A stretch of DNA of 64,000 nucleotides, taken from sequence record OR449013; one strand, given 5' to 3'. Both the position numbers and the translations under genes were made by a program. This document shows positions 55,046-60,531 of the stretch, piece after piece; position 1 is the stretch's first letter, and each line of letters begins with the position of its first letter. Origin of the DNA: Escherichia phage Mangalyan. The notes beneath the pieces were generated by a model that saw only the letters and a program-made list of their open reading frames with translations, was not told where the DNA came from and did no database searches.

Positions 55046-55579
55046 ATGAAAAAGATCATTCTTAATGGTGAAGAATCAAACTATGTGATTGATGAGGTTG
55101 GAAACGTATACGGAAAACGTGGAATGCTACACCCAATATTGTGGGGAGGTTATGGAAAAGGTAAAAAGCATGTTAAACGCCGTTATATGTACTCTTTCAA
55201 CCACAAAGGTAAAAAGATTCGAATCCAAACCTCAAGGATTGTTGCCTTGTATTGTTTGCCGGATGTCCCAGAAGACCCTGAAAACTGGGAAGTGAATCAT
55301 AAAGATGGCAATACATTGAATGATCATCCGTCTAACCTAGAGTGGGTTTTGCCGGAAGATAATAAGAGACATGCTTTCCGAACAGGACTTTGTCCAGGTA
55401 AGTGCTATAGGAAAGTGCAGGCATACAAAGGGAAAACCTTGGTGGGTGAATATCCTTCACTCTATGCCTGTGCAAAAGCCTTAAATTTGAACGTAGGTAA
55501 CGTTCATAGGGCTATCGAAGGAAATGCCGAAGGTAAGCATCTCACAATAAAGGGTTATTATCTTATTGAAGTAGAGTAA
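55046..55579 (+). CDS. HNH homing endonuclease (intron-encoded)
   Basis: VNHKDGNTLNDHPSNLEWV...EDNKRH HNH motif; GGAGAGG SD; stop abuts the intron S element. Confidence 0.7.
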   Translation: MKKIILNGEESNYVIDEVGNVYGKRGMLHPILWGGYGKGKKHVKRRYMYSFNHKGKKIRIQTSRIVALYCLPDVPEDPENWEVNHKDGNTLNDHPSNLEWVLPEDNKRHAFRTGLCPGKCYRKVQAYKGKTLVGEYPSLYACAKALNLNVGNVHRAIEGNAEGKHLTIKGYYLIEVE

Positions 55580-55639
55580 GAGATAGTCTGGCCCTGTGGA
55601 AACACAGGGAGGAGACAGCAGACTCCATTCATCACATTG

Positions 55640-56881
55640 AGTTTAGGACTGGATACCTCGGTCTTTGGTAGAATGATTACCAAAAACTACTTGAAAGTCC
55701 ACAAAATGGGTCTTGGTGAAGAACGTATTACACCTGTATTCCCTAAAGTGCTGTTCTTCCTGGAAGAGGGTGTTAACATGAACCCTGGGGATCCTAACTA
55801 TGATTTGAAACGATTAGCTCTGGAATGCTGTGCAGAACGTATCTACCCTGACTTCGTATCTGTACCACTAAATAGAAAAGTGACAGGCTCGACAGATGGC
55901 AAAGTAACGAGCATGGGTTGCCGGAGTTTTCTTAGCAAATATAATGACTTGGAAACAGGTGAGGAAAAATACCTTGGCAGATTCAACTTGGGTGTTGTTA
56001 GCCTTAACCTGCCAATGATTGCGGCAAAAGCTAAGACGGAAGGTGTTGATTTCTTTGCAGTTCTTGACGAATACTTGGATCTTGCATACGAGGCTCACCT
56101 TGTAAGGGTTAACCGTCTAAAAGGAACAAAGGCAGGGCAGAACCCCATCATGTGGTGTGAAGGCGCTCTTGCTCGCCTGGATCCTGAAGAAAGTATTGAT
56201 AAACTCTTCTATGACGGGTACGCTTCCATCAGCATTGGGTATATTGGTGTGTATGAAACCTGTCAGATTTTGGGCAGAGAGGGTGACAAGGCTTTAGCTC
56301 TTGGAATCCTTCAGCACATGAGAGATGCTTGTGAGCGATACAAGAAGGAAAGTAGACTAGCGTTTAGCTTGTACGGCACCCCTTCTGAGAGTCTATGCTA
56401 TAAAGCTGCAACCTGTCTGGATCGTGAATATCCTGAAGTGTTGAAGCACGAGCATGAATATCTCACCAACAGTTTCCATCAGCCAGTATGGATCAATAGC
56501 TCTCCTTTTGATAAGTGGGCGTATGAGGAAGGTTTTGCTATGATCTCCTCTGGTGGCAACATCGGATATGTAGAGACACCGAATCTGAAAAACAACTTAG
56601 ATGCTTTAGAGGCTCTTGTTGACTTCGGGTATAAACACATTATGTATTTTGGTATTAACCAACCTGTGGATAAATGTCTCAAGTGTGGTTTCTCTGGGGA
56701 GTTCAGTGCAACAGCTAAAGGCTTTGTATGCCCAGAGTGTGGAAACCATGAAGAGGGAACGATCAGTGTGATCAGACGTGTGTCTGGATACCTTTCCAGT
56801 CCTAACTCCCGTCCTTATAATAAAGGTAAGCAAGCGGAAGTTATCGAGCGAGTTAAGCACTATGGAAGTTGTAGTTGCTGA
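55640..56881 (+). CDS. nrdD: anaerobic ribonucleoside-triphosphate reductase, exon 2
   Basis: Glycyl-radical motif RVSGYL and zinc ribbon CLKCGF...CPECG; predicted 3' splice site after G at 55639 (P10 AGUUU / AAACU). Confidence 0.8.
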   Translation, partial: SLGLDTSVFGRMITKNYLKVHKMGLGEERITPVFPKVLFFLEEGVNMNPGDPNYDLKRLALECCAERIYPDFVSVPLNRKVTGSTDGKVTSMGCRSFLSKYNDLETGEEKYLGRFNLGVVSLNLPMIAAKAKTEGVDFFAVLDEYLDLAYEAHLVRVNRLKGTKAGQNPIMWCEGALARLDPEESIDKLFYDGYASISIGYIGVYETCQILGREGDKALALGILQHMRDACERYKKESRLAFSLYGTPSESLCYKAATCLDREYPEVLKHEHEYLTNSFHQPVWINSSPFDKWAYEEGFAMISSGGNIGYVETPNLKNNLDALEALVDFGYKHIMYFGINQPVDKCLKCGFSGEFSATAKGFVCPECGNHEEGTISVIRRVSGYLSSPNSRPYNKGKQAEVIERVKHYGSCSC

Positions 56882-56945
56882 TACTTGACAAAAGCCACAA
56901 GGATGTGGCACCATACAGATGTTTAGGGAAGTTAGGAAACAAGAG

Positions 56946-58079
56946 ATGGCTAAATTATCGACAGAAGAGTTTATAGAGAAGGCGAAAATCATTCACGGTT
57001 ATAAATACAATTACAAGAAAACAGTGTACGTGGATTGCTATGCGAAGGTTTGCATTACCTGTCAAATCCATGGAGATTTTATGCAAGCACCTTGTCAACA
57101 CTTGCAAGGTCGTGGTTGTCCTTTTTGTGCAAAACTTTCTCGTGCTACAAAGTGTAATAAAGGTCTTAAATTTGTAGAAAGAGCCAAAGAAATCCATGGA
57201 GATAACTATGACTACTCTCTCGTATACTACAAGACTTGCAAAGATAAAGTAGAAATAATCTGCAATACTTGTGGAAATCACTTTACACAGACACCTGACA
57301 ATCATATAAATTTGAAAAGAGGTTGTCCAGTTTGCAAGGGGTCAAGAATCTCACAAAGCAAAACCAAACCTCATGAAAAGTGGGTTGAGGACATAGAGAA
57401 GAAAAATACTTATATTGAAATATTAGAAGAGATCACCACTGGGTGGAATAAAGTATTATGTCGTTGCAAAGTTTGCAACCACGAATGGTCAGCTACGCCT
57501 GTTATCCTTAAGCGTGGTCACGGCTGCCCCGGATGTGGCGGATCTATGAAAAAGACCACTGAAGAGTTTATCCAGGACGCTGTGGCTATCCACGGGAACA
57601 AGTATGATTACTCTAAAGTGAGGTATGTGAATTCACACATCAAGGTTACAATTGTTTGCACAGATCATGGAGATTTCTGTCAATCCCCTACCCAGCATTT
57701 AGGAGGGGGAGGGTGTCCTAAATGCACCAAAAGAGGATTTTTATCCCACGATTGTGGTAAACTTTACATTATGGTTGATGATCCGGAAGTGCCTACATTT
57801 ATGAAAATAGGTGTCAGTCATAATGAAAGTAAGCGAAGAGACCAGATACTTAAAAGTGCACAAAGATCTGGAGCTGGTATCTGCGATCTGTACATAGTGA
57901 AAACGTTGGAAGGATCAACTGAAAACATGCTGGCTGTAGAAAAATCTATGCACAAAGCCTTCAGTAAATATAAAATAAACTTCCCTGTAAAATTTGATGG
58001 TAGCACCGAATTCTTCTACTACAGGCCTGAGGTGTTCAGCACAGTGGAAGCAGCGTACAAAGAGATCTGCGGTAAATGA
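56946..58079 (+). CDS. zinc-ribbon repeat protein with C-terminal T5orf172/GIY-YIG-like domain (putative freestanding homing endonuclease)
   Basis: Three repeats of HG-x-Y-x-Y...C-x-HG-F...GCP-x-C and C-terminal KLYIMVDDP...MKIGVS; located between nrdD and nrdG. Confidence 0.4.
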   Translation: MAKLSTEEFIEKAKIIHGYKYNYKKTVYVDCYAKVCITCQIHGDFMQAPCQHLQGRGCPFCAKLSRATKCNKGLKFVERAKEIHGDNYDYSLVYYKTCKDKVEIICNTCGNHFTQTPDNHINLKRGCPVCKGSRISQSKTKPHEKWVEDIEKKNTYIEILEEITTGWNKVLCRCKVCNHEWSATPVILKRGHGCPGCGGSMKKTTEEFIQDAVAIHGNKYDYSKVRYVNSHIKVTIVCTDHGDFCQSPTQHLGGGGCPKCTKRGFLSHDCGKLYIMVDDPEVPTFMKIGVSHNESKRRDQILKSAQRSGAGICDLYIVKTLEGSTENMLAVEKSMHKAFSKYKINFPVKFDGSTEFFYYRPEVFSTVEAAYKEICGK

Positions 58080-58399: not shown

Positions 58400-58636
58400 A
58401 TGGTAGGTGTCTGTGTAAAAGCTAACAGATGGTTTACATTCGGCAAGGATTACGAAATTATCTTTCATTCGGACAGAGCCACAACAGTAGAAAGCGATGA
58501 TGGGTGCTACTGGTTCGTTAGTTACCAGGGTGATGGGTATTATAGATCTACTGATTCCAGAGGGGAAGAAGCTGTTTTCTTAGATAGAGCTTATTGTGGG
58601 CCTGAATATCCCTACCTCAAAGAGGGTAAGGAATGA
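58400..58636 (+). CDS. hypothetical protein
   Basis: 78-aa ORF; stop overlaps nrdG start. Confidence 0.4.
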   Translation: MVGVCVKANRWFTFGKDYEIIFHSDRATTVESDDGCYWFVSYQGDGYYRSTDSRGEEAVFLDRAYCGPEYPYLKEGKE

Positions 58637-59106
58637 ATGTTGTTAATATTATAGAGTGTAGCATGGTTGACGGCCCAGGCATTAGGACAACGGTGTTCTG
58701 TTCTGGTTGTCCACATCACTGCGTTGGTTGCCAAAACAAAAGTGTTTGGTCACCCGCTAAAGGGGAACCGTTAACAAATGACACAATTGAGAGTATACTT
58801 CACTCTATAGAGCCGAAACATATTACTGGCGTTACATTATGCGGTGGCGAACCTTTAGCGCCTTACAATATCGATGGTATGTACTCGATCATTCTCGCTA
58901 TCCGTGAACGCTTCGGCAACACAAAAACTATCTGGGTGTACACAGGGTATTTGTTTGAAGAAGTCCCAGGTTATATTAAAGATAGTGTCGATTACATTAT
59001 GGATGGTAAGTACGAAAAAGATAACCCCACCAAAAAACCATTCAGAGGTAGTGATAACCAAAGAATGTTTAAAAAAGTATCAGGCGGTTGGGTTCAGGTA
59101 GACTAG
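58633..59106 (+). CDS. nrdG: anaerobic ribonucleotide reductase activating protein (radical SAM)
   Basis: CSGCPHHCVGC cluster motif; 157 aa. Confidence 0.8.
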   Translation: MNVVNIIECSMVDGPGIRTTVFCSGCPHHCVGCQNKSVWSPAKGEPLTNDTIESILHSIEPKHITGVTLCGGEPLAPYNIDGMYSIILAIRERFGNTKTIWVYTGYLFEEVPGYIKDSVDYIMDGKYEKDNPTKKPFRGSDNQRMFKKVSGGWVQVD

Positions 59107-59109
59107 CTG

Positions 59110-59139
59110 TTGACAAAGCTTTGTTTAGATAGGTATAAT
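59110..59139 (+). promoter_or_regulatory. strong sigma70-like promoter (TTGACA-18-TATAAT)
   Basis: TTGACAAAGC...TATAATTATCG, immediately upstream of the 59171 micro-ORF. Confidence 0.6.
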
Positions 59140-59170
59140 TATCGTAAAATGAAAGCAGAGGAGGTGCCAA

Positions 59171-59284
59171 ATGGCTAAAAAAGCCTTGAAGAAGGCGTAC
59201 AAAAAAGAAATTGCGCTTGAGCTCAAGAAAAAACACAAGCGTGAAAAGAAACATCATGAGGATGAAGAGGAGCTGCAACAGTGA
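59171..59284 (+). CDS. 37-aa highly basic micro-protein (MAKKALKKAYKKEIALELKKKHKREKKHHEDEEELQQ)
   Basis: ATG with AGAGGAGG SD directly downstream of the strongest promoter; stop overlaps next gene GTG start. Confidence 0.35.
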   Translation: MAKKALKKAYKKEIALELKKKHKREKKHHEDEEELQQ

Positions 59285-59631
59285 CACAAGAACGTATCGA
59301 TTTGGCTAATAAGTTTGTAGATCTCATTTTGCCACGGTTAGTTACTCAACATGCAGACGCTATTTCTACTAATCTTGATGGCTTACGCCTAATGCTGAAT
59401 CGCACAGATGACCCTCGCATTCGGGCTGATTTAGAAGCCTCTGCCAACAAACTGGAAAAGTTCTTGCAAGTAGATACGCAAGAAGCCTTACACAAGATTA
59501 TGGTGGAAGGTTTCTCTAAAGAATTTACCATTAAAGAGCTTAAGGAGCTGATCCACCAAGAAGAGATGAATATCCGAGTTCAGGCTGTTGCAAGCAGCAT
59601 GGAAGCGGCTATTGAAAAACTGTTGCAGTAA
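59281..59631 (+). CDS. hypothetical protein
   Basis: 116-aa ORF, GTG start. Confidence 0.4.
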   Translation: MTQERIDLANKFVDLILPRLVTQHADAISTNLDGLRLMLNRTDDPRIRADLEASANKLEKFLQVDTQEALHKIMVEGFSKEFTIKELKELIHQEEMNIRVQAVASSMEAAIEKLLQ

Positions 59632-59669: not shown

Positions 59670-60458
59670 ATGGGTCGAGCTAAAGAAACAAAACGCATGC
59701 GTGATGAAGCTAGAGAGGCTCGCAAATCTGATCGCCTGCGCAAGGCTGCTGAGAAATTTGCTGACGAAAGAGAGCACACCGCTCCAGCTCTCCGACCAAT
59801 GAATAAGAAGCAGCAAAAGTATCTTGATTATCTAGGGTCACGTAAGATTATCATTGTAAACGGTGTGTTTGGATCCGGTAAGACATTCATGGCATCTGCA
59901 TATGCAGGTGATCTTCTGCGTAAGAACGAGATTGATAAGATCATTGTTGCACGTCCTTACGTTCAGACAGGAAAGACTTCAGGATTTAAACCTGGAAATG
60001 CAATGCAGAAACTGTGGCCCTATCTTCGAAGCATGATGGACACGATTTGTCGTCGTGTTGGCAAAGGTGCTTTTGCCGCAATGCTGGGAGACGGTCAGAA
60101 CAGTCGTATCGAGATTTGTGAAGTTGAAAGCATTCGTGGTCGTAGTTTCGATGAGCGATGCTTTGTCCTGATTGACGAGGCACAGCAAACTAACCCTGAA
60201 GAAATGTTGTCAATTATCACAAGGATCTCTGATCAGGCCACCCTTGTAATCATGGGCGATAATAGCCAACGTGACATCCCTGGTAAATCTGGACTTGCAT
60301 GGGTGACGGATTTCTTTACTCGTCATCCAGATCCTGAGGTTGGAATGATCAGCTTTGATAGTCCAGACGATGTCGTTCGTTCCGGATTGGGTCGTCAGAT
60401 TGCACTCAATCTTATTGAGGATCGTGCAAATCATATTTGGACCCCTGTTTCCGAGTAA
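59670..60458 (+). CDS. phoH: PhoH-like ATPase
   Basis: Walker A GVFGSGKT, Walker B LIDEAQ; 262 aa. Confidence 0.8.
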   Translation: MGRAKETKRMRDEAREARKSDRLRKAAEKFADEREHTAPALRPMNKKQQKYLDYLGSRKIIIVNGVFGSGKTFMASAYAGDLLRKNEIDKIIVARPYVQTGKTSGFKPGNAMQKLWPYLRSMMDTICRRVGKGAFAAMLGDGQNSRIEICEVESIRGRSFDERCFVLIDEAQQTNPEEMLSIITRISDQATLVIMGDNSQRDIPGKSGLAWVTDFFTRHPDPEVGMISFDSPDDVVRSGLGRQIALNLIEDRANHIWTPVSE

Positions 60459-60502
60459 CACAGAAGGGTGGTTATTCCACCCTTAGATATCTAAAACAGT
60501 TG

Positions 60503-60531
60503 TTGACAAACAGGTAAGCTTTAGATATTAT
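60503..60531 (+). promoter_or_regulatory. sigma70-like promoter (TTGACA-17-TATTAT)
   Basis: TTGACAAAC...TATTATTATCGG upstream of the 60557 gene. Confidence 0.6.

What the first reader, a model, noticed from the sequence alone, without database searches (positions are those of the whole stretch)
59110..59284. Strongest consensus promoter in the window drives a 37-aa lysine-rich micro-ORF
TTGACA-18-TATAAT is followed by an AGAGGAGG SD and an ORF encoding MAKKALKKAYKKEIALELKKKHKREKKHHEDEEELQQ, a basic amphipathic helix with an acidic tail, whose stop overlaps the GTG start of the next gene. It could be a nucleic-acid or membrane-binding peptide, or a leader peptide coupling translation into the downstream gene.
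Basis: seen in the sequence. Interest (0 to 1): 0.4.

Follow-up and report, generated by a model that had tools for sequence, protein, structure and literature searches.

The report
Conserved phage micro-protein gene with promoter
The promoter and 37-codon gene are real, but both are already annotated in coliphage rV5 (P118, ORF 118); the peptide is a conserved small phage protein of unknown function that is always encoded next to one partner gene, not a leader peptide or a membrane peptide.

Summary
The window is an rV5-like coliphage (Vequintavirus). All of it is already annotated in the rV5 GenBank record and paper (promoter P118, ORF 118, ORF 119) and catalogued as phrog_7670, with no function assigned and no experiment done.

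New here:
- The ORF is under purifying selection. Within the genus, 9 of 10 variable sites in codons 1-27 are synonymous. Across genera pN/pS is 0.2-0.5.
- The peptide family (about 36 clusters, 32-52 aa) spans Vequintavirinae.
- Its N-terminal 20-residue helix is about twice as conserved as the acidic four-helix partner gp119. In all nine lineages examined gp119 lies immediately downstream, overlapping the peptide gene in eight of them.
- The promoter hexamers are invariant in 11 Vequintaviruses, but the promoter is absent in other lineages.

The hydrophobic moment is low, so the peptide is unlikely to be membrane-active. No attenuator RNA was found. The most likely reading is a highly expressed micro-protein that works with gp119, but its target is unknown. 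This is an ordinary, already-annotated feature of modest interest.

The parts
59110..59139 (+). Sigma-70-type promoter (rV5 'P118'): TTGACA, an 18-nt spacer, TATAAT
   Evidence: It is the only 12/12 site in the window. Both hexamers are invariant in 11 Vequintavirus genomes, while 10 of 18 spacer positions vary. It is annotated as 'Sigma70-type promoter; P118' in DQ832317 and listed in rV5 Table S4 as found by visual inspection. It is absent upstream of the homologous gene in the L011 lineage, PVP-SE1, Hena1 and pEp01.
59140..59156 (+). Variable 5' leader between the -10 hexamer and the Shine-Dalgarno (inferred start site near 59146)
   Evidence: 14 of 17 columns vary among 11 genomes, and there are indels; LL12 lacks 8 nt. 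No Rfam match. The mRNA fold z-score is -1.5, not significant. The start site is inferred from its distance to the -10 hexamer and has not been mapped.
59157..59164 (+). Shine-Dalgarno AGAGGAGG for the micro-ORF, 6 nt before the ATG
   Evidence: Read. Only 2 of 15 columns from the SD to the ATG vary across 11 genomes.
59171..59284 (+). Micro-protein gene (rV5 ORF 118 / gp118; PVP-SE1 gene 144; phrog_7670), 37 aa, net charge +5
   Evidence: ORF listed. phrog_7670 matches at E = 1.8e-18. The gene is annotated as a CDS in the rV5, LL12 and Bas51 records among others. Variable sites fall at codon positions 1:2:3 in the ratio 2:3:13. Across genera pN/pS is 0.18-0.52. Homologues occur in Mydovirus, Seunavirus, Henunavirus and uncultured lineages. 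AF2 predicts a single helix with pLDDT about 90 for residues 1-20 only.
59267..59272 (+). Shine-Dalgarno (GAGGAG) of the downstream gene, lying within the Glu codons of the micro-ORF's acidic tail, 8 nt before the GTG
   Evidence: Read. The equivalent purine-rich stretch is present in relatives: GAGGGG in rV5-type genomes and GAGGAGGAG in L011.
59281..59631 (+). Partner gene (rV5 ORF 119; phrog_7650): 116-aa acidic all-helical protein with a GTG start overlapping the micro-ORF stop
   Evidence: ORF listed. phrog_7650 matches at E = 2.5e-57. The AF2 model has pLDDT 93.8 and four helices. The family is small: 67 clusters at 90% identity and 17 at 50% identity, with no Pfam domain. It lies directly downstream of the micro-ORF in all nine lineages examined.
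59670..60458 (+). PhoH-like ATPase gene, probably the last gene of the unit transcribed from P118
   Evidence: Pfam PhoH matches at E = 3.6e-47. The next promoter-like site is at 60503-60531. A GC hairpin follows the stop codon at 60464-60484. Membership of the same transcript is inferred.

Best explanation
ORF 59171-59284 is a genuine gene for a small protein. It is the gp118 (rV5) / gp144 (PVP-SE1) family, found across the phage subfamily Vequintavirinae.

The protein has three parts:
- a strongly conserved 20-residue N-terminal helix, M-[AS]-K-K-x-L-[KR]-K-A-Y-x-K-E-[LI]-A-[LM]-x-L-[KR];
- a Lys/Arg cluster;
- a lineage-specific, mostly acidic tail.

In rV5-like phages the gene is transcribed by unmodified host sigma-70 RNA polymerase from a genus-specific consensus promoter (P118). 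It is the first gene of a 118-119-phoH unit. It has a strong ribosome-binding site, so it is probably made in large amounts.

It is always encoded directly upstream of, and usually overlapping, the gene for a small acidic four-helix protein (gp119). The ribosome-binding site of gp119 lies inside the peptide's acidic tail. My inferred mechanism is that the two are made together in roughly fixed proportion and act together. The basic peptide would use its conserved helix and basic cluster to contact gp119 and/or a conserved polyanionic target, such as nucleic acid, the ribosome or another host component.

Shown: the gene is real, conserved and under selection; the promoter hexamers are conserved; the linkage to gp119 holds in every lineage examined.
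Inferred: actual transcription and translation, early timing, complex formation, and the target.
For: Coding:
- Within 11 Vequintaviruses, all 10 variable sites in codons 1-27 are at third positions, and 9 are synonymous. The codon-position profile is 2:3:13, the same as the adjacent nrdG.
- Window against L004 shows 6 synonymous and 0 non-synonymous changes in codons 2-20. Across genera pN/pS is 0.18-0.52, with synonymous sites near saturation.
- The one length variant in the Lys run is in frame (P0096).

Family:
- 36 clusters of 32-52 aa, all with the same N-terminal motif. phrog_7670 matches.

Linkage to gp119:
- In nine lineages the partner gene follows with an overlap of 1-11 nt, except PVP-SE1, where there is an 8-nt gap.
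- Charges are always complementary: peptide +5 to +7, partner -2 to -10.
- The peptide N-terminus averages 65% identity against 31% for the partner. It remains recognisable even where the partner scores only 47 bits against its own family profile.

Structure:
- AF2 gives a helix confident only over residues 1-20. The partner is a confident four-helix protein.

Promoter:
- 0 of 12 hexamer positions vary, against 24 of 35 spacer and UTR positions (p = 2.6e-5).
Against: - There is no experimental evidence of transcription, translation or interaction. P118 and ORF 118 in the rV5 paper are purely in silico calls.
- No complex prediction could be run.
- Overlapping junctions are common in this genome (15 of 39), so the overlap alone does not imply a complex.
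- The peptide is more conserved than gp119, which fits a conserved third-party target at least as well as gp119 binding.
- No homology to any characterised protein was found: Pfam, NCBIfam, PADLOC and PDB sequence searches all negative.
- The fold search of gp119 gave only generic helical bundles.
- Promoter strength cannot be read from hexamers; the spacer is a suboptimal 18 nt.
Confidence: 0.6

Rival explanations
1. Host-directed micro-protein acting on its own. The conserved N-terminal helix binds a conserved host component such as the ribosome, RNA polymerase, the nucleoid or a protease. gp119 would merely be a neighbour or a modulator.
For: The peptide N-terminus is about twice as conserved as gp119 (65% against 31% mean identity). 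It stays nearly unchanged where gp119 has diverged almost beyond recognition. Seven positions are invariant across 33 family members (M1, L6, K8, A9, K12, E13, A15). The consensus sigma-70 promoter and strong SD fit abundant early expression.
Against: No similarity to any known host-takeover protein or to any host protein. The strict gene adjacency with gp119 in all nine lineages would then be unexplained. No experimental data exist.
Confidence: 0.25
2. Leader or coupling ORF. The peptide has no function of its own, and its translation only delivers ribosomes to the weak GTG start of gene 119 or regulates it.
For: The TGA stop overlaps the GTG start, and the SD of gene 119 lies inside the micro-ORF. 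The junction is tight in 8 of 9 lineages. GTG is a weaker initiator than ATG (general knowledge).
Against: Selection acts on the amino-acid sequence of the N-terminal 20 residues, far from the junction. The C-terminal residues next to the downstream start are the variable ones. In most lineages the downstream start is ATG with its own SD. PVP-SE1 has an 8-nt gap. There is no attenuator-type RNA structure, no Rfam hit, and the UTR is hypervariable. Overlaps are the norm in this genome.
Confidence: 0.07
3. Membrane-active or antimicrobial-like cationic amphipathic peptide, for example a lysis accessory. This is suggested by the pair lying just upstream of the endolysin gene in Seunavirus, Mydovirus and Henunavirus.
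For: The peptide is cationic and helical. In four or more other lineages the order is peptide, partner, endolysin.
Against: The hydrophobic moment is 0.13-0.33 with mean hydrophobicity below zero, and the hydrophobic residues are spread around the helix. Neither protein has a transmembrane segment. In rV5-like phages the lysin is elsewhere (gp89), yet the pair is retained next to phoH.
Confidence: 0.03
4. The coding gene is on the opposite strand. The 72-aa hydrophobic ORF at 59069-59287 (minus strand) would be the real gene.
For: That frame is open and reads as a Phe/Leu-rich, membrane-like peptide.
Against: This is a composition artefact: Lys codons read as Phe/Leu on the antisense strand. 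The sense-synonymous changes between the window and L004 alter 8 antisense residues. The antisense ORF is cut short by stop codons in rV5 and L004. All surrounding genes are on the plus strand.
Confidence: 0.01

Closest known systems
Phage rV5 ORF 118 / promoter P118 (GenBank DQ832317; Kropinski et al. 2013, PMC3606486); PVP-SE1 gene 144; PHROG phrog_7670
   Same: It is the same gene and the same promoter. The peptide is 92% identical to rV5 gp118. The hexamers and spacing are identical. phrog_7670 matches at E = 1.8e-18.
   Different: Nothing of substance. The tail residues differ (EL against GV at positions 34-35; H against Y at 28), as does the 3' half of the spacer. The published annotation gives no function, lists 'no homologs', and has no experimental support. 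The cross-genus conservation and the pairing with gp119 are documented here.
Translationally coupled small-subunit and partner gene pairs in phages (overlapping stop/start, products in fixed proportion)
   Same: Overlapping stop and start, the downstream SD inside the upstream ORF, opposite net charges, and strict co-occurrence across lineages.
   Different: No interaction has been shown. Overlap is the default gene packing in this genome.
Bacterial leader peptides and arrest peptides (trpL, tnaC, secM, ermCL)
   Same: A short ORF upstream of, and coupled to, a downstream gene.
   Different: There are no alternative RNA hairpins or terminator, no run of regulatory codons, and conservation lies at the N-terminus rather than near the stop. 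The UTR is hypervariable.
Small helical phage-encoded modulators of host machinery, e.g. lambda CIII (FtsH inhibitor), T7 Gp2, and phage-encoded ribosome-associated small proteins (recalled from general knowledge, not tested)
   Same: Size class, a single conserved helix as the functional core, and expression from host-type promoters.
   Different: No sequence or profile similarity was detected to any of them or to any PDB entry. The target is unknown.

Membership tests
rV5 gp118 / phrog_7670 small-protein family | Significant profile match over the full length | tested here: met
   phrog_7670 matches at E = 1.8e-18 over residues 1-37. The family profile search returns 36 clusters, including a 37-aa cluster (P0093) that differs from the window peptide at 2 residues.
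rV5 gp118 / phrog_7670 small-protein family | N-terminal motif M-x-K-K-x-L-[KR]-K-A-Y-x-K-E-[LI]-A-x-x-L-[KR] followed by a basic cluster | tested here: met
   Alignment A6 has invariant M1, L6, K8, A9, K12, E13 and A15, and nearly invariant K3, Y10, L14, L18 and R/K19. The window sequence has all of them.
rV5 gp118 / phrog_7670 small-protein family | Position directly upstream of a phrog_7650 (gp119-like) gene, after the ribonucleotide reductase genes and before phoH | tested here: met
   The window order is nrdG, 118, 119, phoH. The same or an equivalent order occurs in nine lineages.
Sigma-70 (housekeeping) promoter | -35 TTGACA and -10 TATAAT hexamers with 16-18 nt spacing | tested here: met
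   12/12 match with an 18-nt spacer.
Sigma-70 (housekeeping) promoter | Evolutionary constraint on the hexamers relative to neighbouring non-coding bases | tested here: met
   0 of 12 hexamer positions vary against 24 of 35 elsewhere, Fisher p = 2.6e-5.
Sigma-70 (housekeeping) promoter | A mapped transcription start, or RNA polymerase binding | not testable with these tools
   No transcriptome or 5'-end data for any Vequintavirus were found in the literature searches.
Regulatory leader peptide / attenuator | Conserved alternative RNA structures or a terminator between the leader ORF and the regulated gene | tested here: not met
   The ORFs overlap, so there is no intervening RNA. No Rfam hit. 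The fold z-score is -1.5. The UTR is hypervariable.
Regulatory leader peptide / attenuator | Constraint concentrated on regulatory or arrest residues near the 3' end of the leader ORF | tested here: not met
   Conservation lies in residues 1-21. The tail comes in three unrelated lineage-specific types.
Cationic amphipathic membrane-active peptide | High helical hydrophobic moment with a contiguous hydrophobic face | tested here: not met
   The hydrophobic moment is 0.13-0.33, and the hydrophobic residues sit at 60-320 degrees around the helical wheel.
Virion (structural) protein | Detection in purified virions | tested here: inconclusive
   Of the six tryptic peptides searched, one from gp118 and five from gp119, none occurs in the rV5 virion MS supplement. 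A Lys-rich 4.5-kDa peptide is hard to detect after trypsin digestion.

The most novel reading that the evidence does not exclude
The gp118 family is a new class of phage host-takeover micro-protein. Its 20-residue helix, more conserved than its own partner, would dock onto a highly conserved enterobacterial machine such as the ribosome, RNA polymerase or the nucleoid. gp119 would act as its chaperone, neutraliser or co-effector, giving a two-component early effector shared by all Vequintavirinae.
Probability: 0.2. Interest if true: 0.55.

Novelty: already known. Interest (0 to 1): 0.25.

Why it matters
Practically, the result confirms that a 37-codon ORF which gene callers could easily drop is a real, selected gene. 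It should be kept in annotations of rV5-like therapeutic and typing phages. The 'strongest promoter' belongs to one genus rather than to the gene.

Scientifically, the result defines a compact two-gene module that runs through the whole subfamily: a basic micro-protein plus an acidic four-helix partner, always between the ribonucleotide reductase genes and phoH. Neither protein has a characterised relative. The peptide helix evolves more slowly than its partner. If it targets a host machine, it would be a small, synthesisable probe or inhibitor. If it only partners gp119, it is one more uncharacterised phage accessory protein.

Tried and rejected
- tblastn with the window peptide returned nothing because of low-complexity masking. 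The less repetitive Hena1 homologue worked.
It ran after reordering.
- Pfam, NCBIfam and PADLOC on the peptide family and on gp119 gave only sub-threshold noise.
- PDB sequence profiles gave nothing better than E = 0.04.
- An exhaustive HMM search of 1.84 billion representatives with the gp119 profile found 17 clusters. None was a fusion or a multidomain relative.
- Rfam at a permissive E-value, and RNA folding of the leader plus ORF, showed no RNA element.
- The 12-bp palindrome ACAAAGCTTTGT inside the promoter was considered as an operator. It is unique in the window and broken in L004 and ECP32/S127, so it is not selected.
- The antisense 72-aa ORF was rejected.
- A lysis-cassette role was considered because of the adjacent endolysin in other genera. 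It was rejected because neither protein has a membrane segment, and because rV5-like phages keep the pair although the lysin is elsewhere.
- Literature searches found no transcriptome, Ribo-seq or functional data for this gene.
- A co-fold of the two proteins was not possible with the tools.

Full report
**What the window is.** A 1.9-kb stretch around the finding is 96-97% identical to about 120 GenBank records of rV5-like coliphages, genus Vequintavirus, subfamily Vequintavirinae. The local gene order on the plus strand is nrdG (58633-59106), a 37-aa ORF (59171-59284), a 116-aa ORF (59281-59631), a PhoH-like ATPase (59670-60458), a 103-aa ORF and a ClpP-like protease.

**Checking the observation.** Everything described is in the sequence.
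- TTGACA is at 59110-59115, followed by an 18-nt spacer and TATAAT at 59134-59139.
- AGAGGAGG is at 59157-59164, with AGGAGG ending 6 nt before the ATG at 59171.
- The ORF encodes MAKKALKKAYKKEIALELKKKHKREKKHHEDEEELQQ.
- Its TGA overlaps the GTG start of the next ORF (GTGA, 59281-59284).

The perfect promoter pattern occurs once in the 64 kb, against 0.04 expected; 4 of 100 shuffles gave one or more. My own scan confirms it is the only 12/12 site. Seven others score 11/12, and several of those have the optimal 17-nt spacer and an extended -10 TG. 'Strongest' therefore holds for hexamer identity only.

**Already annotated.** The rV5 record DQ832317 carries 'Sigma70-type promoter; P118', ORF 118 (37 aa) and ORF 119 (116 aa) at the homologous positions. 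Other curated records (LL12, BASEL phage Bas51) also call the 37-aa CDS. The rV5 paper (PMC3606486) lists gene 118 as 37 aa, 4482 Da, pI 9.8, with no homologues. It lists P118 among promoters 'discovered using visual inspection', and neither was tested experimentally. PHROGs has a family for each protein, both of unknown function: phrog_7670 (E = 1.8e-18) and phrog_7650 (E = 2.5e-57).

**Is the micro-ORF a real gene?** Yes.

Within the genus, I aligned 11 Vequintavirus genomes. The ORF has 18 variable sites, distributed 2:3:13 over codon positions 1:2:3. The adjacent nrdG 3' end gives 2:1:13. In codons 1-27 all 10 variable sites are third positions, and 9 are synonymous. Between the window and an IMG/VR relative (L004) there are 6 synonymous and 0 non-synonymous changes in codons 2-20.

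Across genera, homologous peptides sit at the equivalent position in these lineages:

| Lineage | Peptide |
|---|---|
| Mydovirus (KB57, Mydo) | MSKKALRKAYTKELALELRGKKPKNKR... |
| Seunavirus (PVP-SE1 gene 144) | MSKKTLRKAYQKELALELRGKKRKNKR... |
| Henunavirus (Hena1) | MSKRTLRKAYQKELAMALRTTKRGRK... |
| Henunavirus (pEp_SNUABM_01) | MSKKALRKACQKELAMALRTKRGRKDR... |
| Uncultured L011 | MAKKLLKKLYKRELAMEHKKKRK... |
| Uncultured L021 | MSSKKFKKAYAKELALELRNKNKKKK... |
| Uncultured L022 (5' end cut by contig) | RKAYSKELALAQRGKKKKR... |
| Uncultured L023 | MSKKTLRKAYQKELALELRSGGKKRKEKR... |

Nucleotide identity over codons 2-20 falls to 46-58% across genera, while pN/pS stays at 0.18-0.52 with synonymous sites near saturation. 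A profile search of 5.8 billion proteins returns 36 clusters of 32-52 aa. In the 33-member alignment M1, L6, K8, A9, K12, E13 and A15 are invariant, and K3, Y10, L14, L18 and R/K19 are nearly so. The tails fall into three unrelated types...HEDEEELQQ...EDELMQLVADAAARGNY...EEDFGFVQQ..NQWGY.

The antisense 72-aa ORF is a composition artefact. Lys codons read as Phe/Leu on the other strand, and the sense-synonymous changes alter 8 antisense residues.

**The promoter.** In the 11 Vequintaviruses both hexamers and the 18-nt spacing are invariant. By contrast, 10 of 18 spacer positions and 14 of 17 leader positions vary, and the leader has indels. Fisher's exact test on 0/12 against 24/35 gives p = 2.6e-5. 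That is good evidence for a functional promoter in this genus.

The promoter is not a property of the gene family. In the L011 lineage only 32 nt without consensus hexamers separate nrdG from the ATG. In PVP-SE1 the ATG follows the nrdG stop directly. In Hena1 and pEp01 the gaps are 22-25 nt. KB57 has its own TTGACA-17-TATGAT.

The 12-bp palindrome ACAAAGCTTTGT within the promoter is unique in the window. It is broken in L004 and in ECP32/S127, so I do not treat it as an operator.

**Leader peptide or functional peptide?** The constraint is on the amino-acid sequence of the N-terminal 20 residues. The residues next to the downstream start are the variable ones. There is no Rfam match at E <= 1. 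The mRNA has no significant structure, with z = -1.5, and the 5' leader is hypervariable. Overlapping junctions are ordinary here: 15 of 39 junctions on this strand overlap, 8 of them by exactly 4 nt.

Translational coupling into gene 119 is plausible. Its GAGGAG lies in the Glu codons of the tail, 8 nt before the GTG. It cannot be the whole story, however.

**What kind of peptide?** AF2 with the family alignment gives one helix. It is confident (pLDDT about 90) only for residues 1-20, and 54-63 for the rest. The hydrophobic moment is low (0.13-0.33), mean hydrophobicity is negative, and the hydrophobic residues are spread around the wheel. It is therefore not a classical amphipathic membrane-binding helix. 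Net charge is +10 over residues 1-27 and -5 over the tail.

In all nine lineages examined the peptide gene is immediately upstream of the gp119 gene. The overlap is 1-11 nt in eight lineages, and PVP-SE1 has an 8-nt gap. The peptide's N-terminus averages 65% identity across lineages, against 31% for gp119. It is still obvious where gp119 scores only 47 bits against its own family profile.

In Seunavirus, Mydovirus, Henunavirus and two uncultured lineages the pair is followed by the endolysin gene and then phoH. In rV5-like phages the lysin is elsewhere (gp89), and the pair abuts phoH. Neither protein has a membrane segment, so a lysis role is unlikely. None of the six tryptic peptides searched (one from gp118, five from gp119) appears in the rV5 virion MS tables.

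**Most likely mechanism.**

Shown:
- a real, selected micro-protein gene;
- a selected sigma-70-type promoter in this genus;
- obligate adjacency to gp119.

Inferred:
- Host RNA polymerase transcribes 118-119-phoH from P118.
- The strong SD gives high peptide output.
- Ribosomes terminating at TGA reinitiate at the overlapping GTG, so the two products are made together.
- The basic peptide acts with the acidic gp119 and/or on a conserved polyanionic target through its helix and Lys/Arg cluster.

The relative conservation leaves open, and mildly favours, a third-party target. The function remains unknown, and no tool available here could test binding.

**Verdict.** It is partly wrong: the peptide is neither a mere leader nor a membrane-type amphipathic helix. 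The feature is already annotated and catalogued, so novelty is low. What this analysis adds is the evidence for selection, the subfamily-wide peptide-gp119 module, and the genus-specific origin of the promoter.

Noticed in passing
window 55046-56881: nrdD appears to be split. An HNH_3 endonuclease ORF (55046-55579) sits in front of a 414-aa ORF that covers only NRDD profile positions 163-562 plus the glycyl-radical domain. In rV5, nrdD is a single 707-aa CDS. The Rfam gathering scan found no group I intron.
   Followed up: partly
window 56919-58079: A 386-aa ORF with repeated DUF4379 treble-clef zinc fingers and a T5orf172 domain. It lies after nrdD, at a place where rV5 has only small ORFs. 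It is probably a mobile endonuclease-like insertion.
   Followed up: partly
window 60464-60531: A GC-rich hairpin AAGGGTGG-TTATT-CCACCCTT follows the phoH stop directly, without a T-run. After it comes an 11/12 promoter-like site, TTGACA-17-TATTAT, which is rV5 'P121'. It may mark the 3' end of the unit transcribed from P118.
   Followed up: no
window 59183-59196: A 5-bp hairpin GCCTT-GAAG-AAGGC lies inside codons 5-9 of the micro-ORF. On the minus strand it reads as a terminator-like site, because the Lys codons give a T-run. It is probably chance.
   Followed up: no
L010:2501-2587 (Salmonella phage NINP13076); P0103 (contig of phage GE_vB_MG size): In two large-genome Seunaviruses the micro-ORF is truncated after about 17-24 conserved codons by a large inserted block (PRPP synthetase, nicotinamide phosphoribosyltransferase, tRNAs, small ORFs). 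The first inserted gene starts 1 nt after the truncated ORF's stop. A second match elsewhere in the record was not located.
   Followed up: partly
L005 ~1270-1296; L023 ~680-705: Mydovirus-like lineages carry a conserved GC hairpin (CCTGCCGG...CCGGCGGG) between glutaredoxin and the micro-ORF's Shine-Dalgarno. KB57 also has its own TTGACA-17-TATGAT upstream.
   Followed up: no
GenBank MG0656xx records: Nineteen records named 'Campylobacter phage' (host C. jejuni) are 93-98% identical to E. coli rV5-like phages over this region. They are probably mislabelled or come from contaminating coliphages.
   Followed up: no
L011-L013 (Logan/ENA contigs of 44-126 kb): An uncultured lineage has the same gene order as rV5-like phages, but its gp119 is only 66% identical and it lacks P118. 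Nothing matches at that identity in the 50,697-record phage collection. One member protein is labelled as an Escherichia coli hypothetical protein in NCBI.
   Followed up: partly
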